A stretch of DNA of 53,651 nucleotides, from NCBI GenBank assembly GCA_016195615.1, contig JACPZF010000015.1:1-53651 (forward strand). The letters run 5' to 3'. Below, one piece after another: positions 15,495 through 46,672 of the stretch. This DNA is from Candidatus Gottesmanbacteria bacterium. Its GTDB lineage: Bacteria; Patescibacteriota; Microgenomatia; JACPZF01. Position 1 is the stretch's first letter; each line of letters opens with the position of its first letter. The notes beneath the pieces were generated by a model. That model ran no database searches and was not told where the DNA came from. It worked only from the letters and a program-made list of their open reading frames with translations. The translations under genes were made by a program, and so were the position numbers.

Positions 15495-17220
<1,726 letters not shown>

Positions 17221-22687: not shown

Positions 22688-24883
22688 ATGGATATTTCTG
22701 ATGGCATCAGGCGCTTTTTGGAATACTTAGAGATCGAACGCAACTGTTCAACTTTGACCATTCGCGACTATGAGCACTACCTAAACACCTTTGACGACTG
22801 GACGAGGGCAAATAGCCAGGTAGAAAAGGTCGAAGACATTGATGACGAACACATACGTCAATTTCGGCTGTTTCTGGCTCGTAAAGCTGACAAGCACGGC
22901 CGTTTTCTGAAACGAATTACGCAAAATTATTACGTCATTGCCTTAAGAGCTTTTTTAAGATATTTAATCAAGCAAGACGTCAAAACATTAGCACCGGAAA
23001 AAATTGATTTACCCAAAACCGAAAGCCGGTCGTTAAAATTTTTAAACGAAGAACAGCTTCATCGTTTACTTACGGCAATTGATATTTCCACCAACTGGGG
23101 TTTAAGAGACAGGACAATGGTCGAAATGCTGTTTTCAACGGGCCTGCGGGTTTCAGAACTGTGTAAGCTTAACCGAAACCAGATAAATTTAGATTCTAGG
23201 GAAATTGGGGTTATTGGTAAAGGTCAAAGGGCCCGCGTGGTATTTTTGTCTGATCAGGCGGTGTTTTGGCTAAATAAGTACTTGGCAAAACGAACCGATG
23301 ATTTCTTCCCTTTATTTATAAGGTATAGTCAAAAAGTTGACGAGACTCCCCATGGCGAGAAAATGAGGTTGACGGCCCGAAGCGTGCAAAGAATGCTGGA
23401 AAAATATGTTTTGAAATCCCGCTTGCCAGTTAAGGCAACGCCGCATACATTGAGACATTGTTTAGAACCAAATACCAGAGTGTTTACCAAAGAGGTTGGT
23501 ATGGTATCTGCCAATGATTTATTTTTTTCTGAAAGTGCAAAAATCGAAGGTGTTAATTTAAAAAACGGAAATCAACAATCAGCAGAAATCACCAAAAAAT
23601 TAAGCCATATATCAGATTTGTATTCTGTTTGGGCCGATGGATACGAGATCGTATGTTCCGGAAAGCACTGGCTTTTTACAGTTGGATTGAACGGGCCCGA
23701 GGAAATATTGGTAAATAATTTAAAGTTAGGAGATTATATTTTAGGTGTTAACAAGGTGAATATTGTTGGTAAAACGTTTGTTGACATAGATATGGCAAGG
23801 TTAATTGGATATATTCTCGGCGACGGTGTTATCAGTGAAAAAAGACGCGGCGTTTTTATATTTGATAAAGATATAGATAACTTAAAATTTTATCAAAAGA
23901 TAATTCTCGATAAGCTGCAGGGTTTTATAACAGTTGCAAAAGCTAAAATCAGCAATAGTTATGTGCTTACTTATTATTCATTACCGTTTGTAAAATTTCT
24001 TATATCGCTTGGTTTGGATAAAAAAGCAAAAGAAAAACGGGTACCGTCCAAAATAGTTAATTCTTCAAATCAAGAAATCGCCTCTTTTTTATCAGGTTTT
24101 TATGATGCAGAGGGCAATTCAACTGGTTCTCCTAGATTTTTTTCATCCTCTAAACATCTTCTCAAAGATGTCCAGATGATGTTATTACGGTTAGGGATAG
24201 ATGCTCATTTAATGGAGCGAAAGAGAACTGTCACACTTCCGTCCGGCAGGCCCTATATCCATTTATTCTATACGCTACAAGTCCTGTCTTTTAATGATCA
24301 AAAGAGATTTATTAAACTAATTCCTACATTAAAAATAAAAACTTTAAAGGTATTTGGTAAGCGCGATTTTGATAAATTACCGGTAAACTTGCTATTAAAA
24401 GAAATTTACGAAGATTTGGAAAAAAACGGGAAAAAAGGTTTTCGTTATGCCTTGCAAATAAATGAAGGGATAAAATCTCCCAGATATTTTAAAGAAATGA
24501 CTCCCCTACGCTCAACCGTTGGAAAATTTATCCGCCAGATAGAGAAATTTAAGTTTAATTCAAAAACTTTTGAAAATTTAAAAATGTTTTATAAATCTCA
24601 AAATATGAAATGGTTAGAGGTGAAAAAGATAATAAGGTGGCCATCGCCACGAAACAGCGTGTTTGATTTCACTGTTTCTGAAATTAGTAATTTAATTACA
24701 GACGGAATTGTCAGTCACAATTCGTTTGCGACTGATCTTTTAATGAAAGGCGCTGATTTACGCAGCGTCCAAGAAATGCTAGGACATAAAAACGTTGGCA
24801 CCACCCAAATCTATACCCACGTCACCAATCCGCAGTTAAAAGAGGTTCATAAGAGATTTCACAGCGGGAACAAAAACAGATAA
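22688..24883 (+). CDS. xerC: XerC/XerD-type tyrosine recombinase interrupted by an intein
   Basis: SD aaggag. N-terminal SAM-like domain ([19 protein letters not shown]), catalytic Arg in TGLRVSEL, then HTLRH|intein|[34 protein letters not shown]. The exteins total 310 aa. Confidence 0.9.
23459..24721 (+). mobile_element. 421-aa intein with LAGLIDADG homing endonuclease
   Basis: Starts with Cys (CLEPNTRVF) and has block B GKHWLFT. LAGLIDADG motifs are [11 protein letters not shown] and [11 protein letters not shown]. It ends ..GIVSHN, followed by the +1 Ser of the C-extein. Confidence 0.85.
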
Positions 24884-26617: not shown

Positions 26618-27401
26618 ATCCGATTCCGGATCGGATTATATTAGCGATCCGGTAATTATTCGATAATTAAATGTTTTATTTTAGCTAAATCTCGTTGGTA
26701 ATCTTTTCTGGCCATTACAAATTTTTCGTAATCTTTTATCGAGCGAAATTGATCTAAAATTATTGATGGATAAACAAAGTCTAATTTTTCTAAACCAATA
26801 TAGTGTTTGTACGACGAATATGAATAATCTTCAGGTTTATCCACCAAATATGCGGTCACAGGATTTAAATGAATATATCTTGACAAGTGTAAAATTTGTT
26901 CGTCGGTTTCAACATGAACCGCTTCAAAATTTGGTTCAAAAAGTGGACCAGAAGTTTCGTGTTTAATATTAAAATAATGGGCATAGCTATTGGATATTTT
27001 ATGTAGAAACTTATAAATGCCAAAATCTTCAGTTTGTTGCAGAGTGAAATGAAAATGCGTTGGCATTATACAAAAATTTATTATTTTAACTAAACAGTAA
27101 CTAAAGTTTAATAAGTACTTGCTTCTGCATTTACGATAATTTGAAAACTTCGTCGCTGGTTTACTTTGAAGATAATATCTTGAAGATTCTAAAAAAAGAC
27201 TGGTTTCCTTTTCCCGATTAAATACAGGACGCTTATAGATCGATCGGTTAAAAACGTGATAGTATTCACCGGTAACAAATTGTATTTTTCTCAGACTCAC
27301 ATATCTAACATAACTCGATAAATATGATTCGTCAATATGGCAATATGTAAGTTTTAGAGGAAATACCCGGTTCGCGAAGCTATTCCGATCCCGGATCGGA
27401 A
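26618..27401 (-). mobile_element. IS200/IS605-family element (Y1 transposase flanked by matching subterminal hairpins)
   Basis: Hairpins ATCCGAT-tccgg-ATCGGAT (26618-26636) and TTCCGAT-cccgg-ATCGGAA (27383-27401) bracket the transposase ORF. The 784-nt span fits IS200-type size. Confidence 0.6.
26656..27300 (-). CDS. tnpA: IS200-like / REP-associated (RAYT-like) HUH tyrosine transposase
   Basis: YYHVFNRS.., the HUH motif MPTHFHF and the catalytic-Tyr region LSRYIHLNPV. Probable GTG start at 27300. The track N-terminal extension to 27483 runs through the left-end hairpin. Confidence 0.7.
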   Translation of the reverse strand: MSLRKIQFVTGEYYHVFNRSIYKRPVFNREKETSLFLESSRYYLQSKPATKFSNYRKCRSKYLLNFSYCLVKIINFCIMPTHFHFTLQQTEDFGIYKFLHKISNSYAHYFNIKHETSGPLFEPNFEAVHVETDEQILHLSRYIHLNPVTAYLVDKPEDYSYSSYKHYIGLEKLDFVYPSIILDQFRSIKDYEKFVMARKDYQRDLAKIKHLIIE

Positions 27402-27415
27402 GAAGATACTTAATT

Positions 27416-27718
27416 TTAATTATCAACAAATAATCTTGCATGTACTGGAAAATCAATTCTTGCCTGTTCCTTAAGTTGATCAACTAGATCCCAATTTCTC
27501 TCATTGGCAGCTGCTTTCATTTTGGTTCTCCATCCAGCCCAAGGATTATCATCGGTATAATTATCTATAAGTGCTTGACCATGACCATCGTCTTTATATT
27601 GTTTTCTTAATGATTTCACGAGTCTATTTCTTGCTTCTGGTCCCCCCGGATATCCAATTTCGGAAGCGTTTAAGGCCAAAATTGGCCTGTATTTTTCTTT
27701 AGCTAATTTTTCCGACAT
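27416..27718 (-). CDS. hypothetical 100-aa protein
   Basis: ORF directly downstream of gyrA. Its last codons abut or overlap the IS end, so the C-terminus may be altered by the insertion. Confidence 0.4.
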   Translation of the reverse strand: MSEKLAKEKYRPILALNASEIGYPGGPEARNRLVKSLRKQYKDDGHGQALIDNYTDDNPWAGWRTKMKAAANERNWDLVDQLKEQARIDFPVHARLFVDN

Positions 27719-27748: not shown

Positions 27749-30142
27749 TTACTCTTTCTCCAAACACGCAACGGCGGCGACGAAGTCGGACTTATCCGAT
27801 AACCTCATGAGGATCACACCCTGGGTAGCTCTACCCAGCCGGGGAACAGAATCGATTGGGACTTTAATCGTCTGTTTGCCCGATTTAGTTGCTAAAACAA
27901 GCTGACCAATCGTTTCTGACACCATTTGCGCGGTGACAATCGGGCCGGTTTTGGCAGTGACATTAGCCACTTTTACGCCCTGTCCGCCCCGTCTTTGCTT
28001 GGGAAAGGAAGTAACCGGAGTTCTCTTCCCTATTCCTCTTTCCGATACCACCAGAATATCGCGGAAAAATTTTAATCTTTTATCGCTCGGGTGTTCAATT
28101 TTTTGGGGTACACTTTCCATACCAACCACCAAATCATCCTTTTTCATTCGTACGCCGCGGACGCCGATGGTATCTCTACCGGTGGATCTTACTTCTTTTT
28201 CGGAAAATCGGATGGATTTGCCTTGATGGGTAAAAAGCATGATATCTTCATCGCCGGAGGTTATTTTTGCCCAAACCAGCTCATCGCCGGTTTCTAACTT
28301 TATTGCCGTTAGGCCATTTTTTCGGATATTCTCATATTGACTAAGAGTGGTCTTTTTAACCGTTCCCTGTCTTGTAGTCAGAAAAATACACTCACTATGG
28401 GTTTTATCGGCTTCACTGCTATAGGTTAGTAAGGAATTTACTTTTTCATCCTGGGCGATATTAATAAGATTTACCACCGCCTGTCCCTTACTAACTCTTG
28501 AGGACTCTGGGAGATCCCAAACTCTAAGTTGGTAAACTTTTCCTTTATTGGTAAAGAATAAAATATTATCATGGGTGTTGGCACTGACCAGATGATCGAT
28601 TTCATCTTCCTCCTTTGTAATCATTCCGGTGACTCCTTTTCCTCCCCTGGCTTGGGCGCGGTAGGAGGAGGGCGAAAGGCGTTTGACATAACCAGTTTTG
28701 GTTAAGGTTATAATCATTTTTTCATTCGGGATTAAGTCCTCATCGGAAAACTCGCCGACTTTGCTTTTAATAACTTTAGTTTTTCTATCGTCGCCGTATT
28801 TTTCTTTAAGCTGGAGGATTTCCTCTTTTATTACTTTTAAAACTTTTTCCCCGTGCGAAAGCAGATCCTCAAGATAGGCAATCGTTTCCATCACCATCGC
28901 CAGTTCGTCTTCGATTTTTTGCCGCTCCAGAGCCGCCAGCCTTCTTAGCTGCATATCCAAAATGGCAATCGCTTGGATTTCAGTCAGACCAAACTTGGTC
29001 ATTAAGTTCTTTTTGGCTTCGTCGGCGTCTTGGGATTTTTTAATCGTTTGAATAACCTCGTCGATGTGGTCAACCGCTATTTTTAAACCCTCCAAAATAT
29101 GAGCTCGAGCCTTGGCCTGTTTGAGTTCGAACTCGCTTCTTTTAGTAACCACTCTTTGGCGGTGCCTGATGTATTCTTCCAGGATGGTTTTGAGAGTTAA
29201 GGTTTGCGGCGTTCCATCGACGAGAGCTACCATGTTTACGGGAAAGACGCTTTGCAGACTGGTATGCTTATATAAATTATTTAATACCTGTTTGGGCCGA
29301 GCATCTCTTTTAAGTTCAATTACAACTCTGATGCCGTGACGGTCGGATTCATCGCGAAGATCAGATATGCCTTCTAACTTTTTATCCTTAACTAAATCGG
29401 CAATTCTTTCGACCATCTGGGCCTTATTCACCTGATAAGGAAGCTCGGTAATAATAATGGCGGATTTGTTGCCACCCGCTATGTCTTCAATTTCAGCTCT
29501 ACCCCTCATGACCACTTTGCCCTTACCCGTCGAATAGGCATTGGCGATTTCAGCTTTATCAAAAATAATGCCGGCCGTGGGAAAATCCGGGCCGTGGACA
29601 TACTCCATGAGTTCCTCGGTGGTAACAGAAGATAGATTTTTGTTATCTACCTTCAATTCGTGTTCAACTTTATCGATTATGAACACAATAGCATCAATAA
29701 GTTCTGCCAGATTATGGGGCGGAATCTTAGTTGCCATGCCCACGGCGATACCTTCGGAACCTATGAGAAGCAAATTAGGAAGCTTGGCCGGCAGATAGAC
29801 TGGTTCTTTTAAGGTGTTATCAAAATTAGGAGTAAAATCAACCGTTTCTTTTTCCAGATCGAATAACATTTCCGCGGCAATTAACGCGTCATAAACCGGA
29901 ATATCGCCATGGGGGTGGTATTTACCTAAAACTTCACCGACAATTTTAGCGCTTTTGGAAAATTTAGAAGTATGATGCAGGCCCATTTCGTGCATGGCAT
30001 AGAGAATGCGTCTGTGAACTGGTTTTAAACCGTCCTTAACGTCTGGCAAAGCCCGAGCCACAATAACGCTCATCGCATAGTCCAAATAGGACTTTTGCAT
30101 TTCTTCGGTAATTTCTACTGGTAGAAGTTTGCCAATGTTCAT
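27749..30142 (-). CDS. gyrA: DNA gyrase subunit A (ORF lacks the catalytic-tyrosine block)
   Basis: [60 protein letters not shown] and C-terminal beta-pinwheel repeats are present. The segment VRMAQ..GNFGS..AAMRYTE is absent (see findings). Confidence 0.85.
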
Positions 30143-30178
30143 AAATCTAATTTAAAAGTTAAAGGTCAAAAGTCAAAA

Positions 30179-32023
30179 TCATTTTCCAATGACGGCGATG
30201 ACAAAAGGCGCGATTAAAAGAGCAACGATTTGCACGATTTTCATCATCGGATTAAGAGCCGGACCGGCAGTATCTTTTAACGGGTCGCCAACGGTATCAC
30301 CGACGACTGCTGCTTTGTGAGTATCGCTGCCTTTGCCGCCATAGTTGCCATCCTCGATGTATTTTTTGGCGTTATCCCAGGCTCCTCCTGCCGTACACAT
30401 ATACAAAGCCAGAGCTAATCCTGAAACCACGACGCCGGCGAGGAATCCTCCCAAGCTTTCCGCACCTAAAAATCCGACCAAAACTGGGGCGCCGACGACA
30501 ATTATAGCTGGAATAATAAGTTCTCTTTGGGCGGCTGCGGTAACGATTGCGACCGCTTTAGAATAATCAGGCAGAGTTTTGCCTTCCATAATACCTTTAA
30601 TTTCTTTAAATTGACGTCTCACTTCTTGGACTACTTCAAAAGCAGCCTTGCCCACGGAGCCAATAAGCCTCGAGCCAAATAAATATGGTAGACCAGTTCC
30701 AATTAAAAGGCCGGCAAAAACTTTAGGATTGGCGATGTCAATTGATTTTAAACCCGTGACTTCAAAATAAGTGGCAAAGAGCGAACTAGCAGCCACGGCG
30801 GCGCTACCAACAGCAAATCCTTTGGTTAACGCCTTCGTAGTATTGCCGACAGCGTCCAGGCTTTCCGTAACCGCTGCCGCCTTGCCAGGGACGTTGGCCA
30901 TTTGAACCATGCCTTGGGCGTTATCCGAAATCGGACCGAAAGTATCTAGAGACATAATAATACCTGTCGTTGCCAGCATACCCATACCGGCAAGGGAAAT
31001 TCCATAAAAACCCAAAAACCAATAACCGACAAAGATCGTCGCGGTAACAATTAGGATATTAAAAAAGGTTGCTTCCATGCCAATAGCAATGCCGCTAATG
31101 ATCGTAGTTCCCGCCCCGGTTTTAGACGCGGTGGCAATTTGCATCACGGGCTTTTCTCCGGGTCCGGTGTAATACTTGGTAAGAAATAATATTACCAGCA
31201 TGGAAATAATACCAGCCACAGCGGCAAACCCGGCTCGTGGTTCGTTTAAAAGAAAAATCGCCAGTGCCATAAAAATTACCATCGCCGAAATGGCCGAAAT
31301 AATAAAGCCGCGAATTAAAGGTAAAAGAGGATTCTCTTTTTCGTTTTTTGCTTTAACAAAAAAGGTTCCGAGTATGGAAGTTACAATAGCTGCAGCCCGT
31401 GCTAAAAGGGGAAAAACTACGCCTTTTAAGCCAAACATCGCGCCTCCTAGGATCATGGAAGCTACAACCCGCATAAAAAGGGTTAATAATGCCGCCCCAA
31501 AACCATAACCGACCAAAACGTCAGTCGCGTGCTTCGCGACTAGATCAGCCCCTTGCGCAATATAGGAAAAATAAGCCCACATATAAATAAGGGAAACGCC
31601 GAAAAGTCCAAGACCGACCACAAGCATGCCGTTTACGGTTCCGGCGCCAAAGGCAATTTTAAGAGCAGGATTTAAACCATATTGAGCGTTATTGGCAGTT
31701 CGCACATTGGCGCGGACAGCAATCCACATGCCAAAAAAGCCGATCAAAGCACTACCTACTCCTCCGAGGACAAAAGCAACTGCTGTACCAGTTCCAAGGG
31801 TAAAATTTATTAAAACGCTTAAAACCAGCATGATAGGAATCACGACTCGAAATTGTTTTTTAATATAAGTCATCGCGCCCTCGCGGATTGCTTTGGCAAT
31901 CGCTTGCAATTTCGGACTGCCCTCTTCTTCTTTAAGTACTTGTCTTGTTAAATAATAACCATAGCCGATGGCTAAAAGAGCTGTTAATGGAGCTACAAAT
32001 AGTGCTATAAGTTGAATATCCAT
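30179..32023 (-). CDS. hppA: membrane-bound proton/sodium-translocating pyrophosphatase (ORF lacks the central catalytic acidic-motif block)
   Basis: Polytopic. The conserved C-terminal motifs GPISDNAQG, DAVGNTTKA, GGAWDNAKKY and GDTVGDPLKDT are present. The GGG.YTKAADVGADLVGK..DNVGDNVGD block is absent (see findings). Confidence 0.8.
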   Translation of the reverse strand: MDIQLIALFVAPLTALLAIGYGYYLTRQVLKEEEGSPKLQAIAKAIREGAMTYIKKQFRVVIPIMLVLSVLINFTLGTGTAVAFVLGGVGSALIGFFGMWIAVRANVRTANNAQYGLNPALKIAFGAGTVNGMLVVGLGLFGVSLIYMWAYFSYIAQGADLVAKHATDVLVGYGFGAALLTLFMRVVASMILGGAMFGLKGVVFPLLARAAAIVTSILGTFFVKAKNEKENPLLPLIRGFIISAISAMVIFMALAIFLLNEPRAGFAAVAGIISMLVILFLTKYYTGPGEKPVMQIATASKTGAGTTIISGIAIGMEATFFNILIVTATIFVGYWFLGFYGISLAGMGMLATTGIIMSLDTFGPISDNAQGMVQMANVPGKAAAVTESLDAVGNTTKALTKGFAVGSAAVAASSLFATYFEVTGLKSIDIANPKVFAGLLIGTGLPYLFGSRLIGSVGKAAFEVVQEVRRQFKEIKGIMEGKTLPDYSKAVAIVTAAAQRELIIPAIIVVGAPVLVGFLGAESLGGFLAGVVVSGLALALYMCTAGGAWDNAKKYIEDGNYGGKGSDTHKAAVVGDTVGDPLKDTAGPALNPMMKIVQIVALLIAPFVIAVIGK

Positions 32024-32032
32024 ATATCCTTT

Positions 32033-34040
<2,008 letters not shown>

Positions 34041-34827: not shown

Positions 34828-36549
34828 GTGAAAAACGACAATAATGATCTTGCTAGAGTGCTTTTGTCGCAAAAGCTTCTTTCCCCCGAGCAAGCGGATT
34901 TAGTTCGTCTGGAAAGTGTTAATAAAGGCCAAAGAATTGAAGAGGTCATCAGGGCCCATAATTTTGTCGCGGAAGAACAACTAGCCAAAGCTAAAGCTGA
35001 GATTTTAGGCGTTTCCTACGTTTCTTTGGCGGCCAAAGGCATTTCCCCTGATATTTTAAATTACATTCCCGAACCAGTTGCCAGACGCTACATGGTATTG
35101 CCCTTTTCTTTTGACCAAAAAACGAGAATTCTTTCGGTAGCGATGAAAGATCCGGTGGACATTTCCGCCATTGAATTTCTAGAAAGCAAATCCGGTCTAG
35201 CCATCGAACCGTATCTGGCCCTAGAAAGCGAGCTTTCGCAAAAGATCGAAGAAGAATATTCCCAAAGTCTAACTTCGGAAGTCACGCAGGCATTAAATGA
35301 ATCAACTATTTCTACTAAAACCGAAGAAGATACCTCTAAATCCCTAGCCCAGACGATCACCGAAGCACCGATTGCCAAAATCGTTTCCACGATATTAGAT
35401 TACGCCGTCAAATCGCGCGCGTCAGATGTTCACATCGAACCCCAAGAAGAAAGAACCAGGGTGCGCTATCGTATCGACGGCATTTTGCACGAAAGATTGG
35501 CCTTGCCGAAAAAGGTCCACGACGCGGTCAGTTCCCGCATCAAAATTCTCGCCGACATGAAAATCGACGAGAGAAGAATTCCCCAGGATGGCCGTTTTTC
35601 CTTCTCCAGCGGTGATCAGGAGGTGGATTTGCGCGTTTCCTCGCTTCCTACCGTTTATGGTGAAAAAATTGTCATGCGGCTTCTGAAAAAAAGCGGCGGC
35701 GTTCCAACCTTGCCTGAACTTGGCTTAAGAGGAACGGCGCTAAAAAACCTGGAAAACGCCACACTTCGGCCCCACGGTATTATTTTAATTACCGGACCAA
35801 CCGGATCGGGAAAAACTACGACTCTCTACTCGATTTTAACCAAATTAAATACGGCGAAAGTCAACATCGTGACTTTGGAGGATCCGGTTGAATATCAAAT
35901 CGGTGGGGTTAATCAGGTCCAAATAAATCCGGCTGCCGGGTTAACTTTTGCTTCTGGGCTGCGTTCCTTTTTGCGTCAAGACCCTAACATTATTATGGTC
36001 GGTGAGATTCGGGACACAGAAACAACTGATTTGGCTATTCAGGCGGCCTTAACAGGGCACTTAGTATTTTCTACTCTTCATACCAACAACGCTTCCGGAG
36101 CTTTGCCCAGGCTTTTGGATATGCATGCAGAGCCTTATTTAGTCGCCTCGGCTCTTAACGCCGTGGTGGGTCAACGCGTAGTCCGACGGATTTGTAATTT
36201 TTGTAAAGAAGAATACGAACCGCCGGAGCCAATTGTCAGCGATCTAAAATTAGTCCTTGGTAAATTATTTCCTGACTCAGCGCAGCAAAAAACTAGCAAA
36301 CTTGTTCTCTATAAAGGTAAAGGCTGCGATGAATGCAGCGCTACCGGGTATCAAGGCCGAATTGGAGTTTATGAAGTATTGCCGATAGACGAAAAAGTGG
36401 GCAGATTGGTATTAGAGCACGCTTCGACCGGCGACATTGAAGCCAAAGCGATCGAGGAGGGTATGATTACGATGAAACAAGATGGGTATTTAAAAATTAT
36501 TGAAGGCATTACGACCGTGGAAGAAGTACTGCGGGTGGCGCAGGATTAA
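34828..36549 (+). CDS. pilB: type IV pilus assembly ATPase PilB (GspE family)
   Basis: N-terminal MshEN-like domain, Walker A GPTGSGKTTT, LEDPVEY, Walker B MVGEIRD, His box GHLVFSTLHTN and a tetracysteine CNFC..CDEC. GTG start. Confidence 0.9.
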   Translation: MKNDNNDLARVLLSQKLLSPEQADLVRLESVNKGQRIEEVIRAHNFVAEEQLAKAKAEILGVSYVSLAAKGISPDILNYIPEPVARRYMVLPFSFDQKTRILSVAMKDPVDISAIEFLESKSGLAIEPYLALESELSQKIEEEYSQSLTSEVTQALNESTISTKTEEDTSKSLAQTITEAPIAKIVSTILDYAVKSRASDVHIEPQEERTRVRYRIDGILHERLALPKKVHDAVSSRIKILADMKIDERRIPQDGRFSFSSGDQEVDLRVSSLPTVYGEKIVMRLLKKSGGVPTLPELGLRGTALKNLENATLRPHGIILITGPTGSGKTTTLYSILTKLNTAKVNIVTLEDPVEYQIGGVNQVQINPAAGLTFASGLRSFLRQDPNIIMVGEIRDTETTDLAIQAALTGHLVFSTLHTNNASGALPRLLDMHAEPYLVASALNAVVGQRVVRRICNFCKEEYEPPEPIVSDLKLVLGKLFPDSAQQKTSKLVLYKGKGCDECSATGYQGRIGVYEVLPIDEKVGRLVLEHASTGDIEAKAIEEGMITMKQDGYLKIIEGITTVEEVLRVAQD

Positions 36550-36590
36550 AAAAATTTTAAGTTTTTAATTCTTAATTTTTAATAAAATCT

Positions 36591-37652
36591 ATGGAACTTG
36601 CAACTTTATTACAAACCATCCTAACTGCGCGGGGTTCGGATCTACATTTATTGGCTAACCTCTTGCCGATGATTAGAGTTGATGGCGATCTAAGCCCCAT
36701 TGCGGGCCAAAACATGATCAGTGCCGACGATGTTAAGACGCTTTTGTTTTCCATTATGAGCGAGGAGCAAAAAGAATTATTTTTAGCTAATAAAGAGATT
36801 GATTTCTCCTATGCTTTTTCCGATGCGGCGCGGTTTCGCGTCAATGTTTATTGCCAAAAAGGGACTTTTGGAGCCGCTTTCCGTCTAATTCCCATGAAGA
36901 TACCATCGCTTACTGATATTAATTTGCCAGATATTACCCATGTCTTTGCCAGCTTAAAGCAGGGATTTATTCTCGTTACCGGGCCGACAGGACACGGCAA
37001 ATCTACTACTCTCGCCGCGATTATTAACGAAATCAACCGAACTAGAAGAACGCATATTGTAACAATTGAAGACCCGATTGAATATATTTTTAAACCCGAG
37101 TTAAGTATTATTTCTCAGCGCGAAATGCATCTCGATACCCATTCTTGGGATCTGGCGCTAAGGAGTGTTTTACGTGAAGATCCTGATGTGGTACTGGTTG
37201 GCGAGATGAGAGATCTCGAAACCATTCGCGCGGCGATGACGGTTGCCGAAACCGGCCATTTAGTTTTAGCAAGCCTGCATACTAACAGTGCGAGTCAGAC
37301 CATCGATCGTATCGTGGGGGTATTTCCAGAAGAGGAACAACAGCAAGTCAGATTGCAACTAGCGAGTACGTTGGAAGGAATAATTTCGCAAAGACTTATT
37401 CCTTTAGTAAGCGGCGGTCGCATCCCGGCGGTGGAAATCTTAACCGCTACGGCAGCGATTAAAACCGTCATTCGCGAGGGGAAAAATCATCTCATCGACA
37501 ACATCATTCAGACTTCGGCGGAATCGGGGATGATTTCTCTAGACAAATCGCTGGCGAGATTAGTACTTAACAATAAAGTTAGTAAAGATGTCGCCATGGC
37601 TTATTCTCTGCACCCCGAAGATTTTGTCAGCATCTTAAGAGAAAAGAAATAA
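36591..37652 (+). CDS. pilT: twitching-motility retraction ATPase PilT
   Basis: GSDLHL, GPTGHGKSTT, IEDPIEY, LVGEMRD and GHLVLASLHTN. Length is 353 aa. Confidence 0.9.
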   Translation: MELATLLQTILTARGSDLHLLANLLPMIRVDGDLSPIAGQNMISADDVKTLLFSIMSEEQKELFLANKEIDFSYAFSDAARFRVNVYCQKGTFGAAFRLIPMKIPSLTDINLPDITHVFASLKQGFILVTGPTGHGKSTTLAAIINEINRTRRTHIVTIEDPIEYIFKPELSIISQREMHLDTHSWDLALRSVLREDPDVVLVGEMRDLETIRAAMTVAETGHLVLASLHTNSASQTIDRIVGVFPEEEQQQVRLQLASTLEGIISQRLIPLVSGGRIPAVEILTATAAIKTVIREGKNHLIDNIIQTSAESGMISLDKSLARLVLNNKVSKDVAMAYSLHPEDFVSILREKK

Positions 37653-37655
37653 ATT

Positions 37656-38861
37656 ATGCCCATTTATCGATACAAAGTACGAGACCACGGGAGTAAAACG
37701 TTGCAAGGAAACATCGAAGCTAAAGACCCTCGGGTGGCGGCGGTGCTACTTCGCGAGCGGGGGCTTTTTATCATTGATATCGGTCTGCCGACAAAATTTA
37801 GCGTCGAAACCGTCAAGAGATATTTAACCAAAGTTTCCTATGGTGATATTGCGACTATGACGAGGCAGTTTGCGACGCTTATTACTTCCGGACTGCCGAT
37901 AATTGACGCGTTGTCTCTGCTTGGCGACCAAATGCAAAACCCCATACTTTCCGCTACGGTCGAAGGCATTAAACACGAAGTTGAAGGCGGATCGAATTTA
38001 GCAACGGCCTTTGAAAAACATCCCAATATTTTTAACCGTTTGTACATCTCACTTTTAAGAACCGGTGAGACTTCGGGAATGTTGGATAAAGTCTTAAGTA
38101 AATTAGCTGACAACATGGAAAAACAACGCGAATTTAATTCCAAAGTTAAAAGCGCTTTGGTCTACCCCATCATTGTTATCGGCGGCATGGGCTTAGTCGC
38201 TTTAATTATGATGATTTTCGTCATTCCCAAACTCACGGCTTTATACAAGGATTTAAACGTCGTTTTGCCCCTGCCGACGCGGATTTTAATCGCTGTCTCC
38301 AATTTTATGATTGGTTTTTGGTGGTTAATGATTTTAGCCATTTTCGGTTTAGGATTTCTTTATTCGGCTTGGCGCAAAACCGATCAGGGGCGCCAAATCA
38401 CCGATAGGCTTAAATTAAAAGTCCCGATCCTGGGACCTATTACGCAAAAAGTAAATCTGGCCCAGATTTGCCGTACCCTTGGCCTTCTCGTTGGCGCCGG
38501 CATTCCCATTATCGACAGCATTAATATTGTGGCTACGGCAACCGATAATGTTTTAATGGAAAAAGCTTTAAATTTTGCTTCCAAACACGTGGAAAAAGGA
38601 TTCCCTTTGGCGCAATCAATTGAACAAAAAGAGGTCTTTCCGCCGATTGTGGCCCAAATGATCAGGGTGGGCGAAGAAACCGGTAAATTAGACGATTCTC
38701 TTCTTAAACTTTCCTACTATTTTGAGAGCGAAAGCGAAGAGTTAATCAAGGGCTTGACAACTGCATTGGAGCCACTTATCATGATTGTATTGGGAGTGGG
38801 AGTTGGCTTTTTAGTCATCTCCATCATTCTTCCCATTTATAAAATTACCAGCGCGATATAA
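37656..38861 (+). CDS. pilC: type IV pilus platform protein PilC (GspF family)
   Basis: Two GspF repeats (..FATLITSGLPIIDAL.. and ..LGLLVGAGIPIIDSI..) and three TM segments. Length is 401 aa. Confidence 0.9.
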   Translation: MPIYRYKVRDHGSKTLQGNIEAKDPRVAAVLLRERGLFIIDIGLPTKFSVETVKRYLTKVSYGDIATMTRQFATLITSGLPIIDALSLLGDQMQNPILSATVEGIKHEVEGGSNLATAFEKHPNIFNRLYISLLRTGETSGMLDKVLSKLADNMEKQREFNSKVKSALVYPIIVIGGMGLVALIMMIFVIPKLTALYKDLNVVLPLPTRILIAVSNFMIGFWWLMILAIFGLGFLYSAWRKTDQGRQITDRLKLKVPILGPITQKVNLAQICRTLGLLVGAGIPIIDSINIVATATDNVLMEKALNFASKHVEKGFPLAQSIEQKEVFPPIVAQMIRVGEETGKLDDSLLKLSYYFESESEELIKGLTTALEPLIMIVLGVGVGFLVISIILPIYKITSAI

Positions 38862-38875
38862 GGAGGTTTAACAAT

Positions 38876-39451
38876 ATGAGGAAAGCCATCCAAAAAGGTT
38901 TTACGATGATCGAGCTTTTGGTGGTTATTGCGGTTATCGGCGTTATGGCCACCGCCGTTCTTTCAGCTATCAATCCTCTGGAACAAATCAATAAAGGCAA
39001 TGACACCGGTTTAAGATCAGATGCGGAGCAAGTCCTGGGTGCAGTAGATCGGTATTATTCATCATTAGCCTATTTCCCTTGGCAAAACGGGGCCAACGAT
39101 AACTTTGTCAACGTAGCCTGGCAAAACGTTATCGATCTAAATACTAATCGTTCGGCTTTAACCAATATGGAAAATACCCAGGAAATTAAACACGGATTTA
39201 CTCTCCGGCTGACAGATGTCAAGCGAACGCCGATTTATTTAATGTATGACAACAGTTCGGCTTCACCAACGATGTATGCTTGTTTTGTGCCCAAGTCAAA
39301 CTCGTTTTTGACAGAGGCATTTAATCGCTGCAAAGGTACAGCAGTTACGGCTGGGACGCCATTTGGAGCAACCGGCGAAGCATGTGCGGGGACTGTTGGA
39401 GCAAGTACAACTTGCAATACGACCAAAAACTGCTACGTTTGTCTGCCGTAA
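38876..39451 (+). CDS. type IV pilin (candidate major pilin)
   Basis: Strong SD aaggagg and the prepilin motif KG|FTMIELLVVIAVIGVMA. First pilin gene after pilBTC, with a Cys-rich C-terminus. Confidence 0.85.
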   Translation: MRKAIQKGFTMIELLVVIAVIGVMATAVLSAINPLEQINKGNDTGLRSDAEQVLGAVDRYYSSLAYFPWQNGANDNFVNVAWQNVIDLNTNRSALTNMENTQEIKHGFTLRLTDVKRTPIYLMYDNSSASPTMYACFVPKSNSFLTEAFNRCKGTAVTAGTPFGATGEACAGTVGASTTCNTTKNCYVCLP

Positions 39452-40437
39452 AAGGTTGGGCGATACAGAGCGCCGCGGCTTGTACCTAATTTTATAAGGA
39501 AACCTTCCTTAAGCAATTGACTTACATCATAATGAAGCGTGCTTTTAGGAATTTTTTGAAAACGGCGTTTGAGAAAATCAAAAGAAACAATTTGGTGATT
39601 TCTGACGATCTCTAAAATTTCCCGTCGCCTGGGAAGAAGCCAGTCCTCTACGGTTTCGGTTTTGGCATTTTTAAGTTTTTCCATGGTCTTATCAGTTTGG
39701 AATTGTAATCCCTCTAAAAAAAATTCCACAAATTCGGTGACGTCTTTTTTATTTAGAGCCAAAAGATCATAGTAAGTTTGCCTTTTTGATTCTAAATATT
39801 CTTCTAAAGATACTAGTCCGCGAAAACCAAACCCGGAATTTTTTAAAATTAAAGTGGCCAAAAGTCTTCCGGTCCGACCGTTTCCGTCTAAAAAGGGATG
39901 AATTTTTTCAAAGGCAAAATGGTAAGTGGCGGCGTTCACCGGACCCTCATCTTCTGAAGAATTTATTTTTGCTACCAAGGTTTTGATTAAGGAAGGTATC
40001 TTTGACGCCGGAGGTGTAAGATAAACTGCAACTTGGGCCTGACTAAAAATCGCGGAAGGTTCGCGGCGCCACTCTCCCGCTTCGGGGGAAAGATTGGCCA
40101 AAACATACCCATGCAGTTTAAGAATTGTCGAATAAGACAATTTTTTTGGTGCCTTGGAATAGACCCAAGTAAGGCCTTTCAGAACGTTGGCCACTTCAAT
40201 TTTAGCGATATTTTTGGCGTTCCTTTGTAAAGAGATAAAACTTAAGTCTTCCAGACGCAATTTGTTGCCCTCAATCCGGGCAGAAAAAAGCGAGCTTTTA
40301 AGAAGTGACTCGCGCCGGAGATTCTCTTCAAGATGAGGCGATGACGGCAGCAAAGCGATAACCCTAGCCATAACTTTCAGCTCTTCCATGGCTTTGGCGA
40401 TGACCTTTGTGCGGCGGTAGTAGTAATCCAATTTCAT
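39433..40437 (-). CDS. Fic-family protein (AMPylase-type) with C-terminal wHTH-like region
   Basis: Fic motif HPFLDGNGRTGRLL. Antisense to the pilus genes, with a convergent 19-nt overlap on the pilin gene 3' end. Confidence 0.85.
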   Translation of the reverse strand: MKLDYYYRRTKVIAKAMEELKVMARVIALLPSSPHLEENLRRESLLKSSLFSARIEGNKLRLEDLSFISLQRNAKNIAKIEVANVLKGLTWVYSKAPKKLSYSTILKLHGYVLANLSPEAGEWRREPSAIFSQAQVAVYLTPPASKIPSLIKTLVAKINSSEDEGPVNAATYHFAFEKIHPFLDGNGRTGRLLATLILKNSGFGFRGLVSLEEYLESKRQTYYDLLALNKKDVTEFVEFFLEGLQFQTDKTMEKLKNAKTETVEDWLLPRRREILEIVRNHQIVSFDFLKRRFQKIPKSTLHYDVSQLLKEGFLIKLGTSRGALYRPTFYGRQT

Positions 40438-40520
40438 ATTAAATAATCTTAGAAGATATTAGAAGTTATTGCAAGATATTGAAGGATTTTTAGAGTCGTC
40501 TCTGTTATAATTCTTTCGTT

Positions 40521-41966
40521 ATGCTCTATCGTTTAGTTGATTTGGTTTTGGCCAAAAAAAATCTGGCGTTTTTTTTAATTCTTTTCATGCTGGGTTTGTT
40601 TGTGGTCTTCCCGACTTACGACCCGGATTTGGGCTGGCATATCGCTTACGGCAATTATTTTTGGCAAAACCATAAACTATTAACAAGCGATATTTTTTCC
40701 TGGACCCTAGCTGATTTTAAGTGGTTTAGCATTTCCTGGCCTTATGATCTTTTAGTAAGTTTGGTTTTTCCTAAAGGAGAATTTTTGGCCTTGTCATTAA
40801 TCGCGGTGGCAGTAATTCTTCTGACTTTTTGCTTTCTCGTCAAACCTTTTAAACTTTCCTTTTTTTGGTTAGTAATGGCATCGTTAGTATTTATTTTTTT
40901 TGTCCAACCACTAGCCAGCCCGGGTTTTAGAGTTCAGCTTTTTGAACTGCTTTTTTTAGCCGTAGCGACAAGTCTTATTTGGTCGTATGAAAAAGGTCAA
41001 AAAGTAGTAGTTTGGTACTTTCCTCTTTTAATGATCGGTTGGATCAATCTTCATGGCTCATTTATCATGGGACTCTTTTTAATCGGTTCTTACGTAGTTG
41101 TTAAAAACTTAAGTTCAACGTTAAACGCGCAGCAAAAAATAGTTTTAAATTTAATTTTACTACTTACTATTCTAGCTGTTTTTATCAATCCTTACGGTCT
41201 GGCGCTTTTTAAACAAATTGTAAATTATGCCCCCATTTTGCGAACTACCGGCGTTAATGAATGGCAGCCGGAAAGCATTTTTTCCGATAAGTGGCTGATG
41301 CTTTTAGTCTGGACGGCCCTCCTCATCGTTATCGTTTTAAAAAACCGCCGCGATCATTTTGGTTTGTATCAAGCTGTTATCGTTTTGCTATTTGCTTTTT
41401 TAGGTTTTAATTCGAGAAGAATGATCACGCCGTATGTGGTTGTTTCTTTACCCCTGGTATTAAATTTTATTCATGGTCTAAATTTTAAAATAAGCAAAAA
41501 AGCAAATTTGATGGCTTTAGTAATTATCATGAGTGCTATCGTCAATGGACTTTTTAATCGACTTCCCTCTTTGCATTTTTTAAAGACCAATCTTAATGAA
41601 TACTGCCAAATTGGACTGCATTGTTCTCCGGAAGCGATGAGCTTTATTAAAAAAAATCCTTTACCGAAAAAAAGTCTAACTTTTTATAACTGGGGCGGTT
41701 ATTTAATTTGGCAAACGGAAAGTCGCGTTTTTGTCGACGGCCGGATGGACCAATGGGAAAAAGAGGGTTTTAGTGCTTTTAGCGATCACGAAAAGATTTT
41801 GCAAAAAGACGATTTAGATCTTTTTAATAAATATAATTTCGACGCCGTCTATATCCCACCTACTTTTCGTTTGGCAGCGTATCTAGAAAAACAAACAGAG
41901 CAAGGGAAATGGGCTAAGGTTTTTGGCGATGATCGCGCGGTCATTTTTGAGAAAAAAAAGTTATGA
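40521..41966 (+). CDS. polytopic membrane protein, GT-C-like glycosyltransferase candidate
   Basis: About 11 TM segments, an acidic motif in the first extracytoplasmic loop (YDPDLGWH) and a soluble C-terminal domain (YNWGGYLIW..FVDGRMDQW). The family assignment is tentative. Confidence 0.4.
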   Translation: MLYRLVDLVLAKKNLAFFLILFMLGLFVVFPTYDPDLGWHIAYGNYFWQNHKLLTSDIFSWTLADFKWFSISWPYDLLVSLVFPKGEFLALSLIAVAVILLTFCFLVKPFKLSFFWLVMASLVFIFFVQPLASPGFRVQLFELLFLAVATSLIWSYEKGQKVVVWYFPLLMIGWINLHGSFIMGLFLIGSYVVVKNLSSTLNAQQKIVLNLILLLTILAVFINPYGLALFKQIVNYAPILRTTGVNEWQPESIFSDKWLMLLVWTALLIVIVLKNRRDHFGLYQAVIVLLFAFLGFNSRRMITPYVVVSLPLVLNFIHGLNFKISKKANLMALVIIMSAIVNGLFNRLPSLHFLKTNLNEYCQIGLHCSPEAMSFIKKNPLPKKSLTFYNWGGYLIWQTESRVFVDGRMDQWEKEGFSAFSDHEKILQKDDLDLFNKYNFDAVYIPPTFRLAAYLEKQTEQGKWAKVFGDDRAVIFEKKKL

Positions 41967-43519
41967 AAAAAACTATTTTACTAGCGATCGCGGTTTACTT
42001 AATAAGCAGTATCGGCCTACTTTATGGTTATCTCCACACGCCTTCCGGGATGATTTTTTTAGGCGGGCATTTGCCCAATTCCGGTGAAATCCTAAATATG
42101 GTTTTACCGCAGCTTCGGGAAGGACATTTGTTAATTAAAAACCTCTTTACCTCTGAACCGCAGCCCAGAATTTTTTTTGCTCCTTCTTATTTACCAATGG
42201 CGTTACTGGGTCAAATTTTGCCTGTCAATAATTTTCTCCTTGTACAGTTAGGACGTTTTTTTTACACGATCTTATTTTTTATTATTGCTTTTAAATTTTT
42301 TAAACTCCTTAAACTTAAAAATATATTTTGGGCGTTTTTGCTTTTAGGTTTTTCCTCGGGGTTTGGCCTTTTTTTAAAATGGGGAATTCCTAATTCGGCG
42401 GATTTATGGATTCCTGAGATCAACACTTTTCATAGTCTTCTTTTTTCTCCCAATATTATTTTTAGCCAAATACTGATGATGTTGTCGCTTATGACTTTTT
42501 TTAAAGGGTATACCTTACAAAAATGGAAATACTTTTTGCTTTCAGGAGCGTTTGCTACTCTTTTAGCGTTTGAACACCAGTTTGACGCCGTAACCGTACT
42601 CCTTACTATTTTGATATTTCTTCTTTTGACCGAAACAAAATTTAAAATTTGGCTTAAAAAAATATTCTCGCTTTGGTCGATTTTTTTCGGACCAATACTC
42701 GTCTTTGGGCTTTATTATTTTCTGATTAAACAAAACTGGTCATCATTGATTTGGACTAACCAAAACCATCTTTACTCCCCACCTCTACTCTCCTACATTT
42801 CGGGATTTGGTCTAATTGGCATCGGTGCTTTTTTGGCAATTATTAAATCTAAGAACAAAAAAAATTCTTCTTATCATCTTATTTTGTCCTGGCTGATAGC
42901 CGTAATAATTGTTATTTATAGTCCTTTGCCTTTTCAAAGAAGATTTGGCGAAGGAATGCATATTCCTCTGGTCATACTAAGTTCTTACTATCTTTGGGAA
43001 TTAGTCCAAAAGTTAAAAAAAATTCCTTTTCGGCTTGGCCTTTTTTTCCTGCTGCTATTTTCAGCAGCAACCAATTTTTATTTGCTTTATCTTGATATCA
43101 AAGCCTACCAACTAAGTCCCAATGAATCACCATTTTATATTTATCAGGAAGACCTAACGGCTCTTTCGTGGTTAAGAAATAACTCCAGCGACAAAGATGT
43201 TATTTTAGCCGATGGGCTCTACAGTCCTCTGATTCCGGGATTAATAGGACGTACGGTTTATTTCGGCCATTCGGTCGGGACTGCACTGACGATTGATCCG
43301 GAAAAAAAGACCGAGCAGGCGAAGAATTTTTTCTTTTATGATTCGGACGAAAAACGTCAGAAATTTTTGGAAAATAATAAAATAACTTTTTTCTTTTTGG
43401 GGAAAAAGGCAGCCGCCGCGGAAGATTTTTCCCTCTGGGAGGGGAAAGATTATTTTAGAAAAGTTTTCGAAAGACAAGACGTTAAAGTTTTTAAGGTAAA
43501 AAATTCTTTGATAATTTGA
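41963..43519 (+). CDS. polytopic membrane protein, ArnT/PMT-like (GT-C) candidate
   Basis: About 12 TM segments plus a C-terminal soluble domain, coupled to the preceding gene by a 4-nt overlap. The family assignment is tentative. Confidence 0.35.
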   Translation: MKKTILLAIAVYLISSIGLLYGYLHTPSGMIFLGGHLPNSGEILNMVLPQLREGHLLIKNLFTSEPQPRIFFAPSYLPMALLGQILPVNNFLLVQLGRFFYTILFFIIAFKFFKLLKLKNIFWAFLLLGFSSGFGLFLKWGIPNSADLWIPEINTFHSLLFSPNIIFSQILMMLSLMTFFKGYTLQKWKYFLLSGAFATLLAFEHQFDAVTVLLTILIFLLLTETKFKIWLKKIFSLWSIFFGPILVFGLYYFLIKQNWSSLIWTNQNHLYSPPLLSYISGFGLIGIGAFLAIIKSKNKKNSSYHLILSWLIAVIIVIYSPLPFQRRFGEGMHIPLVILSSYYLWELVQKLKKIPFRLGLFFLLLFSAATNFYLLYLDIKAYQLSPNESPFYIYQEDLTALSWLRNNSSDKDVILADGLYSPLIPGLIGRTVYFGHSVGTALTIDPEKKTEQAKNFFFYDSDEKRQKFLENNKITFFFLGKKAAAAEDFSLWEGKDYFRKVFERQDVKVFKVKNSLII

Positions 43520-43557
43520 TTGAAAAAATACATCTTTAATGCTAGTATTACTATAGC

Positions 43558-44073
43558 ATGCGTAAATCTGCCTTTACCCTTATCGAACTAATGATTGCCG
43601 TAACCATTGTTGCCATAATTGCTGGAATTTTTGCCTTAAATGTGTCTGGAAATTTAGCTAAGGCCCGAGATGCAAAAAGGAAAAGTGATTTAAGAGCTCT
43701 TAAAACTTCCCTAGATCTTTATTACAATGTTAACAACCTCTACCCTCCTTCGGAATCGAGTTGGCCGCCTTTTTCCGGGGATAATCGCATTAAAGGCTGT
43801 GGGGCTTTAACTACACCTCTTAATTGCAATTGGGGAACGCCATGGGTTCAGGATGGAGTAACCTATATGGGAGTCTTACCTAAAGATCCTCAATCGCAAT
43901 GGTCCTACTATTATCTACGTGCGCCGCAAGGCCGCTTAAGTTATATTATGGTGGCTAAATTGGAAAGAGGTTTTGATCCGGATACTGCCGCGTCGCAAAG
44001 CAATTGTCAGGATACGACTTATGGTTTTGTCTATTCTGACCCATCGTGGTATGTGGTGTGTGATGCGAGGTAG
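43558..44073 (+). CDS. prepilin-type N-terminal cleavage/methylation domain protein (pilin)
   Basis: MRKSA|FTLIELMIAVTIVAIIAG. Extended -10 TGcTAGTAT lies 9 nt upstream of the ATG. Confidence 0.8.
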   Translation: MRKSAFTLIELMIAVTIVAIIAGIFALNVSGNLAKARDAKRKSDLRALKTSLDLYYNVNNLYPPSESSWPPFSGDNRIKGCGALTTPLNCNWGTPWVQDGVTYMGVLPKDPQSQWSYYYLRAPQGRLSYIMVAKLERGFDPDTAASQSNCQDTTYGFVYSDPSWYVVCDAR

Positions 44074-44078
44074 ATAAT

Positions 44079-46020: not shown

Positions 46021-46023
46021 AAT

Positions 46024-46638: not shown

Positions 46639-46672
46639 ACATTGATTTTATTTTAGATACTTTATAGAATAA

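What the first reader, a model, noticed from the sequence alone, without database searches (positions are those of the whole stretch)
31455..31480. The H+/Na+-pyrophosphatase gene next to gyrA also lacks its central catalytic block, in frame
The translation reads ..GYGFGAALLTLFMRV|VASMILGGAMFG... In membrane PPases such as Thermotoga and Vigna, as I remember them, the equivalents of these segments are separated by about 55-60 residues. That stretch (GGG.YTKAADVGADLVGK....PEDDPRNPA.IADNVGDNVGD.AG.GADLFES) holds most of the PPi/Mg-binding acidic residues. The C-terminal motifs are intact. Two neighbouring, otherwise well-conserved genes each missing exactly their most conserved block is unlikely to be coincidence. 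It points to a common cause, such as an assembly or polishing artefact at ultra-conserved sequence, or a shared biological process. The gene order gyrB-hppA-gyrA is itself unusual.
Basis: partly seen in the sequence, partly recalled or inferred. Interest (0 to 1): 0.65.

Follow-up and report, generated by a model that had tools for sequence, protein, structure and literature searches.

The report
Catalytic cores deleted from hppA, gyrA
In this one public contig, the membrane pyrophosphatase gene and the neighbouring gyrase A gene each lack exactly the stretch that carries their catalytic residues; no relative shares the loss, so it is probably an error in the record or a very recent lethal lesion, not new biology.

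Summary
The hppA ORF (30179-32023, minus strand, 614 aa) lacks exactly 180 nt (60 codons) present in all 119 nearest homologs, which are 669-676 aa. The lost block is VGGGIFTKAADVGADLVGK..EDDPRNPA..DNVGDNVGD..FESYEVT, equivalent to Vigna PPase residues ~243-302. It covers the end of helix 5, loop 5-6 and the start of helix 6. The adjacent gyrA (797 aa) lacks exactly 120 nt (40 codons), including the catalytic tyrosine (AAMRYTE); 33 of 33 related loci keep this block.

Both truncated proteins are singletons in the public collection and occur exactly in NCBI nr, so the lesions are in the public record. The remainder of both genes is under strong purifying selection (dN/dS 0.03-0.06, like gyrB). 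Divergence is even across the junctions, and no other gene in the window has a comparable loss.

The blocks are not uniquely conserved at nucleotide level, so "artefact at ultra-conserved sequence" has no specific support. The order gyrB-hppA-gyrA is conserved in 29 of 29 Microgenomates/WWE3 loci where both neighbours could be seen, so it is normal for this clade.

Best reading: contig-specific, inactivating lesions, most likely introduced after or during assembly. Real recent deletions cannot be excluded without the reads. Interest is low.

The parts
30179..32023 (-). hppA ORF, 614 aa. It is a membrane-integral pyrophosphatase gene with an internal 60-codon in-frame deletion.
   Evidence: Pfam H_PPase E=3.9e-196 in two stretches. 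PDB alignments. Homologs are 669-676 aa.
31464..31469 (-). hppA deletion junction (FMR|VVASM). 180 nt are absent relative to L001. The position is ambiguous by the 4-nt microhomology GTTG.
   Evidence: DNA alignment to L001 shows one gap of 180 nt at gene position 555|556. The lost block corresponds to VrPPase ~243-302, TmPPase (4AV3) chain positions ~201-260 and PaPPase (8B37) ~192-251.
30248..30301 (-). Retained C-terminal catalytic motif GDTVGDPLKDTAGPALNP (helices 15-16).
   Evidence: Motif location. Invariant in the alignment.
30818..30847 (-). Retained GNTTKALTKG motif. A Lys/Thr version of this motif marks K+-independent M-PPases (my own knowledge).
   Evidence: Motif location. The block of the close relative matches the K+-insensitive Pyrobaculum PPase 8B37 best.
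27749..30142 (-). gyrA ORF, 797 aa, with an internal 40-codon in-frame deletion that removes the catalytic-tyrosine block.
   Evidence: Pfam DNA_topoisoIV in two stretches plus six DNA_gyraseA_C repeats. Alignments to E. coli and L001. The gap is seen against 33 of 33 loci. Homologs are 812-872 aa.
29881..29882 (-). gyrA deletion junction (YDAL|IAAEM). 120 nt are absent. It lies at a codon boundary and shows no microhomology relative to L001.
   Evidence: DNA alignment gap at gene position 261|262. Protein columns.
32073..34037 (-). gyrB ORF, 654 aa, intact. It is the first gene of the conserved gyrB-hppA-gyrA array and was used as the internal control.
   Evidence: Four complete Pfam domains. 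No consistent gap against 32 loci. dN/dS 0.024 against L001.

Best explanation
hppA and gyrA on this contig each carry one clean, in-frame internal deletion, of 60 and 40 codons.

In hppA the deletion removes the cytoplasmic end of helix 5, loop 5-6 and the first half of helix 6. That takes out K5.58, the Asp residues of the AAD/GAD and DNVGDNVGD motifs including the water-activating D6.43, and the ion-gate residues D6.50, E6.53 and S6.54. The product cannot bind Mg2-PPi, hydrolyse it or pump ions.

In gyrA the deletion removes the active-site tyrosine, so the product cannot cleave DNA.

The lesions are peculiar to this single public contig. I think they were most likely introduced when the record was made. 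Possible routes are two nearby scaffold or assembly breaks joined without a marked gap, or some other post-assembly edit. On this view they do not reflect the genome of a living cell.

Shown: the deletions, their exact extent, their uniqueness, and the loss of catalytic residues. Inferred: the non-biological origin.
For: 1. Exact extent: 180 nt and 120 nt, in frame.

2. Uniqueness. All 119 nearest M-PPases and all 119 nearest GyrAs keep the blocks, as do 33 of 33 related loci. Both truncated proteins are singleton 90% clusters seen on one contig only. The junction peptide pattern is absent from 241 million JGI contigs.

3. No relaxed selection. dN/dS against the closest relative is 0.030 for hppA and 0.058 for gyrA, compared with 0.024 for intact gyrB. 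The 150 nt on each side of each junction are equally constrained. The lesions are therefore at most extremely recent.

4. Both genes encode functions the cell should need, and no second copy or relocated block is present in the window.

5. Lost residues map onto the hydrolytic centre, loop 5-6 and ion gate of solved M-PPases (PMC5150537).

6. The sizes are exactly 40 and 60 codons, and the gyrA cut sits on a codon boundary. This is odd for spontaneous deletions. There are no flanking repeats beyond 4 nt and no end-pairing hairpins.

7. Precedent. Related public MAGs have scaffold gaps inside gyrA: L027 has 16 N replacing ~35 aa, and L022 has 100 N.
Against: - No mechanism is demonstrated. The window contains no N.
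- A plain de Bruijn graph assembly cannot create a junction that is absent from the reads. If the contig is an unedited MEGAHIT or SPAdes contig, the junctions must exist in sequenced molecules.
- Dropped FASTA or flat-file lines do not fit. The two junctions have different phases modulo 60.
- The blocks are not uniquely conserved at nucleotide level, so cross-species graph tangling is not specifically indicated.
- An unmarked gap would be in frame in both genes only 1 time in 9.
- The deletions hit functional cores rather than nucleotide-conservation maxima. This hints at selection on function rather than at an assembly cause.
Confidence: 0.6

Rival explanations
1. The deletions are real in the sequenced DNA. 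They are very recent, inactivating deletions in a cell line or DNA population that dominated the sample. Possible settings are a lineage with another functional gyrA/hppA elsewhere in the genome, damaged or relic DNA, or molecules altered during amplification or cloning. The genes would be fresh pseudogenes.
For: - Graph assemblers only output junctions that are present in reads (my own knowledge of assemblers).
- The window has no N and no frameshifts elsewhere, so the contig looks like a clean primary assembly.
- hppA has a 4-nt GTTG microhomology at the junction, as in slippage or microhomology-mediated deletion.
- The deletions remove functional cores rather than nucleotide-conservation maxima.
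Against: - A cell without the gyrase catalytic tyrosine should not replicate, so clonal dominance is hard to explain.
- There is no second copy in the window.
- There is no sign of relaxed selection, and there are no further lesions.
- Two independent clean in-frame deletions of 40 and 60 codons in adjacent genes are improbable.
- gyrA shows no microhomology.
Confidence: 0.3
2. The truncated proteins are functional variants (pseudoenzymes). For example, a catalytically dead GyrA or M-PPase scaffold could have a regulatory or structural role in this CPR bacterium.
For: - Both ORFs stay open and in frame, and their flanks are perfectly conserved.
- The hppA cut removes roughly a helix-loop-helix unit.
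Against: - No other sequence among billions shares either deletion.
- There is no adaptive divergence around the junctions.
- Nothing in the window replaces the lost essential activities.
- The structure prediction of the truncated PPase was uninformative (mean pLDDT 39).
Confidence: 0.04
3. The lesions share a targeted biological cause. Homing-endonuclease or intein-associated cleavage at conserved catalytic sites, followed by imprecise repair, would have removed the blocks.
For: - This genome does carry an intein with a LAGLIDADG endonuclease in a tyrosine recombinase, 3 kb from gyrA.
- A relative (L006) has a ~1.2-kb insertion in gyrB.
- The classical GyrA intein site next to the catalytic tyrosine (my own knowledge) lies inside the deleted block.
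Against: - None of the 120 nearest hppA or gyrA homologs carries an intein; their lengths are 669-676 aa and 812-872 aa.
- The result would still be lethal.
- The known gyrA intein site would be off-centre in the deletion: 33 residues from one end and 7 from the other.
- This does not explain the exact 40- and 60-codon sizes.
Confidence: 0.03

Closest known systems
K+-independent membrane-integral pyrophosphatases (Pfam PF03030; solved examples: Pyrobaculum aerophilum 8B37, Thermotoga maritima 4AV3, Vigna radiata 4A01)
   Same: The gene is clearly of this family (E=3.9e-196). It is 95% identical outside the gap to a full-length 674-aa ortholog. The C-terminal helix 15-16 motifs and the GNTTKA motif are retained.
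   Different: It lacks the 60 residues equivalent to VrPPase ~243-302, which are the helix 5 end, loop 5-6 and helix 6 start. It therefore lacks K5.58, D6.43, D6.50, E6.53 and S6.54, which PMC5150537 describes as substrate-binding, water-activating and ion-gate residues.
DNA gyrase subunit A (Pfam PF00521 plus PF03989)
   Same: The N-terminal breakage-reunion domain and six C-terminal beta-pinwheel repeats are recognised. Amino-acid differences from the L001 GyrA outside the gaps are few (pN 0.06).
   Different: It lacks 40 residues, including the GQGNFGS and AAMRYTE motifs with the active-site tyrosine.
Scaffold gaps and local assembly errors inside conserved genes of public CPR MAGs
   Same: Related MAG loci lose parts of gyrA at assembly gaps: L027 (16 N for ~35 aa) and L022 (100 N).
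   Different: Here there are no N at all, both losses are in frame, and both are exact multiples of 60 nt.

Membership tests
Membrane-integral pyrophosphatase (H_PPase, PF03030) | Significant full-length match to the family profile | tested here: met
   E=3.9e-196, 654 bits. The match is split into two stretches, and the second runs from residue 186 at profile position 224.
Membrane-integral pyrophosphatase (H_PPase, PF03030) | Helix 5 / loop 5-6 / helix 6 catalytic block (GGG.YTKAAD..ADLVGK, EDDPRNPA, DNVGDNVGD, ion-gate D/E/S) | tested here: not met
   The block is absent, as an exact 60-codon gap against all homologs. The role of these residues is taken from PMC5150537.
Membrane-integral pyrophosphatase (H_PPase, PF03030) | C-terminal acidic motifs of helices 15-16 (GDTVGDPxKDTxGP) and helix 12 GNTT motif | tested here: met
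   Both are present and invariant in the alignment.
Membrane-integral pyrophosphatase (H_PPase, PF03030) | PPi hydrolysis coupled to H+/Na+ pumping | not testable with these tools
   This needs biochemistry. Loss of the hydrolytic-centre residues predicts no activity (inference).
DNA gyrase subunit A | Breakage-reunion domain plus C-terminal beta-pinwheel repeats | tested here: met
   PF00521 E=1.9e-129 in two stretches. PF03989 matches six times.
DNA gyrase subunit A | Active-site tyrosine in the AAMRYTE motif | tested here: not met
   The motif is absent. There is a 40-codon gap against E. coli, L001 and 33 of 33 loci.
Conserved gyrB-hppA-gyrA gene array of Microgenomates/WWE3 | hppA lies between gyrB and gyrA on the same strand | tested here: met
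   The window has this order, as do all 29 related loci where both sides were visible. About half of them have intergenic gaps under 150 nt.

The most novel reading that the evidence does not exclude
The two deletions are real and share a biological cause. Some process in this CPR bacterium would excise, in frame, the catalytic blocks of two co-transcribed housekeeping genes. Examples are endonuclease-targeted damage at conserved sites, or deliberate production of catalytically dead GyrA and PPase scaffolds while intact copies sit elsewhere in the genome.
Probability: 0.05. Interest if true: 0.6.

Novelty: not a real feature. Interest (0 to 1): 0.15.

Why it matters
If the lesions are an artefact, the value is practical. 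A public NCBI contig, and two nr protein entries derived from it, carry silent, unmarked in-frame losses of catalytic cores. These would mislead motif surveys, structure modelling or claims of "degenerate" CPR enzymes. The case shows that such errors need not be flagged by N runs or frameshifts.

If the lesions were real, a gyrase without its tyrosine in a dominant population would require a second gyrase or some unknown rescue. That would be interesting, but nothing here points that way.

The one positive biological result is small. hppA sits between gyrB and gyrA throughout Microgenomates/WWE3.

Tried and rejected
1. Missing blocks relocated elsewhere in the window. tblastn with the Vigna, Thermotoga and E. 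coli blocks found nothing.

2. Dropped 60-column FASTA or flat-file lines. This is tempting because 120 and 180 are multiples of 60. It is rejected because the junctions lie at 29881|29882 and 31464-31469, phases 1 and 24-28 modulo 60. A 1-nt shift at gyrA would need Ile where 23 of 25 relatives have Val and none have Ile.

3. Chimeric strain switch at the junctions. Synonymous divergence from L001 is similar on both sides (pS 0.50-0.62).

4. Repeat-mediated collapse. hppA has only a 4-nt GTTG and gyrA has nothing.

5. Hairpin-mediated slippage. Fold z-scores were -1.9 and -1.2, and the ends do not pair.

6. Nucleotide ultra-conservation as the trigger. The blocks are not uniquely conserved.

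7. Genome-wide loss of conserved motifs. The other genes are intact.

8. Deletions planted in the test window. The exact 614-aa and 797-aa proteins are in NCBI and NCBI nr.

9. Independent occurrences or same-species full-length alleles. There were 0 hits in JGI metagenome contigs for the junction pattern and for a flanking 22-mer. The closest relative anywhere is only 84% identical in DNA.

10. A protein search with a 57-aa junction peptide. The word index returned nothing usable, and the search was wasted.

11. AlphaFold model of the truncated PPase from a 7-sequence alignment. Mean pLDDT was 39, which is uninformative.

12. Literature search for this gene order or for in-frame MAG artefacts. 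Nothing directly relevant was found.

Full report
**What is in the sequence**

The ORF at 30179-32023 (minus strand, 614 aa) is a membrane-integral pyrophosphatase gene (Pfam H_PPase, E=3.9e-196). The profile match is broken into two stretches, and the larger one starts at residue 186, which corresponds to profile position 224 of 645. Alignment to the Vigna radiata H+-PPase structure 4A01 covers Vigna 142-249 and then resumes at Vigna 305.

A search of 5.8 billion proteins returned 119 close homologs of 669-676 aa. The window's 614-aa protein was the only short one. In an alignment with six of these homologs the window protein has a single 60-column gap between perfectly conserved flanks. Only the window protein lacks all of DNVGDNVGD, EDDPRNP and GGGIFTK.

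The closest relative is L001 (GCA_964372475.1; 95% amino-acid and 84% nucleotide identity). Against it, the DNA gap is exactly 180 nt at gene position 555|556, which is window 31469|31468. The position can slide by the 4-nt microhomology GTTG.

**The neighbouring gene**

gyrA (27749-30142, minus strand, 797 aa) lacks exactly 120 nt (40 codons) at gene position 261|262, which is window 29882|29881. The cut is on a codon boundary. It removes [40 protein letters not shown], which includes the active-site tyrosine motif. The same 40-residue gap appears against 33 of 33 related loci. All 119 nearest GyrA homologs are 812-872 aa, and none but the window protein lacks both motifs. A further 13-codon difference from L001 lies in a length-variable region and looks natural. 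Neither missing block is encoded elsewhere in the window.

**What is lost functionally**

The block from the close relative aligns without gaps to Pyrobaculum PPase 8B37 (best hit), Thermotoga PPase 4AV3 and Vigna PPase. The deleted 60 residues equal Vigna ~243-302. They cover the cytoplasmic end of helix 5, loop 5-6 and the first half of helix 6.

Li et al. 2016 (PMC5150537) describe the roles of this region:
- The hydrolytic centre is lined by conserved aspartates and lysines that bind Mg2+ and substrate.
- K5.58 coordinates phosphate.
- Closure by loop 5-6 is necessary for directional pumping.
- D6.43 (with D16.39) activates the nucleophilic water.
- D6.50, E6.53 and S6.54 form part of the ion gate.

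All of these lie in the missing block. The product cannot be an active pump, and a GyrA without the tyrosine cannot cleave DNA (established enzymology). An AlphaFold model of the truncated PPase from a 7-sequence alignment was too poor to use (mean pLDDT 39).

**Is it biology shared with anything else?**

No. Both truncated proteins are singleton clusters at 90% identity and are seen on a single 53,651-bp contig, which is the window itself. Their exact sequences are held by NCBI and NCBI nr, so the lesions are in the public record and were not introduced for this exercise. A degenerate DNA pattern for the junction peptide FMRVVASMILGG has no match in 241 million JGI metagenome records. A 22-mer flanking the junction, shared with L001, has none either. 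No same-species sequence exists in the collections. The nearest relatives are at 84% DNA identity, and the nearest DnaB is 92% identical.

**Selection and chimerism tests**

| Gene or segment | dN/dS against L001 |
|---|---|
| hppA | 0.030 |
| gyrA | 0.058 |
| gyrB (intact control) | 0.024 |
| hppA, 150 nt on each side of the junction | 0.033 |
| gyrA, 150 nt on each side of the junction | 0.024 |

Synonymous divergence is similar on both sides of each junction (pS 0.50-0.62). There is no sign that the 1.6-kb segment between the junctions comes from another strain. The genes were under full constraint until, at most, very recently.

**Is it a general property of the contig?**

No. gyrB, the delta-prime-like gene, pilB, pilT, pilC and the recombinase show no consistent internal gap against up to 32 related loci. 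Pfam coverage is complete for DnaB, ArgRS, PilB, the Na+/H+ exchanger and others. DnaB aligns end to end, with no gap, to a 92% identical homolog. The window has no N, no terminal overlap and no frameshifted genes.

The first explanation was an artefact at ultra-conserved sequence. In a codon alignment of 28 relatives, the hppA block has mean pairwise nucleotide identity of 0.76-0.79. That is the same as retained blocks at aligned positions ~1200-1260 and ~1800-1950. The gyrA block scores 0.645 and ranks 76th of 765 windows of 120 nt. At about 65-79% identity, long exact k-mers shared between species are not expected. The blocks are special for their function, not for exceptional nucleotide conservation.

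The second claim was that the gene order is unusual. In the 29 Microgenomates/WWE3 loci where both sides were visible, gyrB lies upstream and gyrA downstream of hppA on the same strand. In about half of them the spacers are under 150 nt. Distant CPR and proteobacterial hppA loci lack this arrangement. The order is a clade-wide synteny.

**Possible causes**

- *Repeat collapse.* There are no long direct repeats at the deletion ends: 4 nt in hppA and none in gyrA.
- *Hairpin-mediated slippage.* No hairpin brings the ends together (z = -1.9 and -1.2).
- *Lost text lines.* Both sizes are exact multiples of 60 nt (40 and 60 codons). That is about a 1-in-400 coincidence given that both are in frame, and I noticed it post hoc. 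It suggested lost 60-column lines, but the two junctions have different phases modulo 60, and the 1-nt shift needed at gyrA is not supported by the relatives. I reject this route.
- *Unmarked scaffold gaps.* Related public MAGs do lose parts of gyrA at scaffold gaps, but those are marked by N: L027 has 16 N in place of ~35 residues, and L022 has 100 N. This shows that the locus is prone to assembly breaks. An unmarked version of such gaps, or another post-assembly edit, is my favoured route.
- *Against the artefact view.* A plain de Bruijn graph contig cannot contain a junction that is absent from the reads. If this contig is unedited assembler output, the deleted molecules must have existed in the library.

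**Verdict**

The finding is a correct observation of two contig-specific, inactivating, in-frame deletions. They are not a conserved or functional feature.

| Explanation | Probability |
|---|---|
| Record-level artefact | ~0.6 |
| Real but very recent, non-functional deletions in the sequenced DNA | ~0.3 |
| Biologically meaningful process | under 0.1 |

The raw reads would settle the question in minutes. Interest is low. The practical lesson is that two nr proteins and a public contig silently lack catalytic cores.

Noticed in passing
window 27749-34037; loci L003-L033, L071, L078: gyrB-hppA-gyrA lie on one strand, often with spacers under 150 nt. This order is conserved in all 29 Microgenomates/WWE3 loci where both sides were visible. 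It is absent around hppA in Parcubacteria, Gracilibacteria, Peregrinibacteria, archaea and proteobacteria. A membrane pyrophosphatase embedded in the gyrase operon is an unexplained clade-wide synteny.
   Followed up: yes
window 22688-24883 (+): A 731-aa tyrosine recombinase (Phage_integrase plus SAM-like N-domain) is interrupted by an intein with a LAGLIDADG endonuclease: Intein_splicing at residues 273-678 and LAGLIDADG_3 at 464-545. It lies 3 kb from gyrA. Eighteen related loci hit this protein.
   Followed up: partly
window 29881|29882 and 31464-31469: Both deletions are exact multiples of 60 nt (120 and 180 nt, or 40 and 60 codons). Given that both are in frame, this is about a 1-in-400 coincidence. 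It is not explained by line loss, repeats or hairpins.
   Followed up: yes
window 26656-27718 (-): An IS200-like Y1 transposase ORF (275 aa; Pfam Y1_Tnp, E=1.3e-6) overlaps a 100-aa ORF with no family match. The pair lies directly downstream of gyrA. It is a mobile element next to the damaged locus, but no link to the deletions was shown.
   Followed up: no
L006 7825-9059: In the Woesebacteria MAG GW2011_GWA1_44_23, gyrB is interrupted by about 1.2 kb between residues ~462 and ~448 of the query. This is probably an intein; it was not examined.
   Followed up: no
L027 13441-13456; L022 14167-14266; L003 ~12940: Related public MAGs have assembly defects inside gyrA: a 16-N gap replacing ~35 residues (L027), a 100-N gap with duplicated flanks (L022), and a frameshift in a long-contig MAG (L003).
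   Followed up: partly
window 15811-17220 (+): The queuine tRNA-ribosyltransferase homolog is 469 aa and matches Pfam TGT in two stretches (142-468 against profile 90-352). This suggests an insertion relative to typical TGT.
   Followed up: no
window 34828-47587: A large type IV pilus cluster holds pilB (573 aa), pilT (353 aa), pilC (401 aa) and at least six ORFs with the N-terminal methylation (prepilin) motif. A Fic-domain gene sits on the opposite strand at 39433-40437, and two large ORFs with no family match lie at 40521-43519.
   Followed up: no
window 824-3472 (-): An 882-aa ORF has only a weak, sub-threshold match to solute-binding protein family 5 and no hit in the related loci. Its function is unknown.
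   Followed up: no
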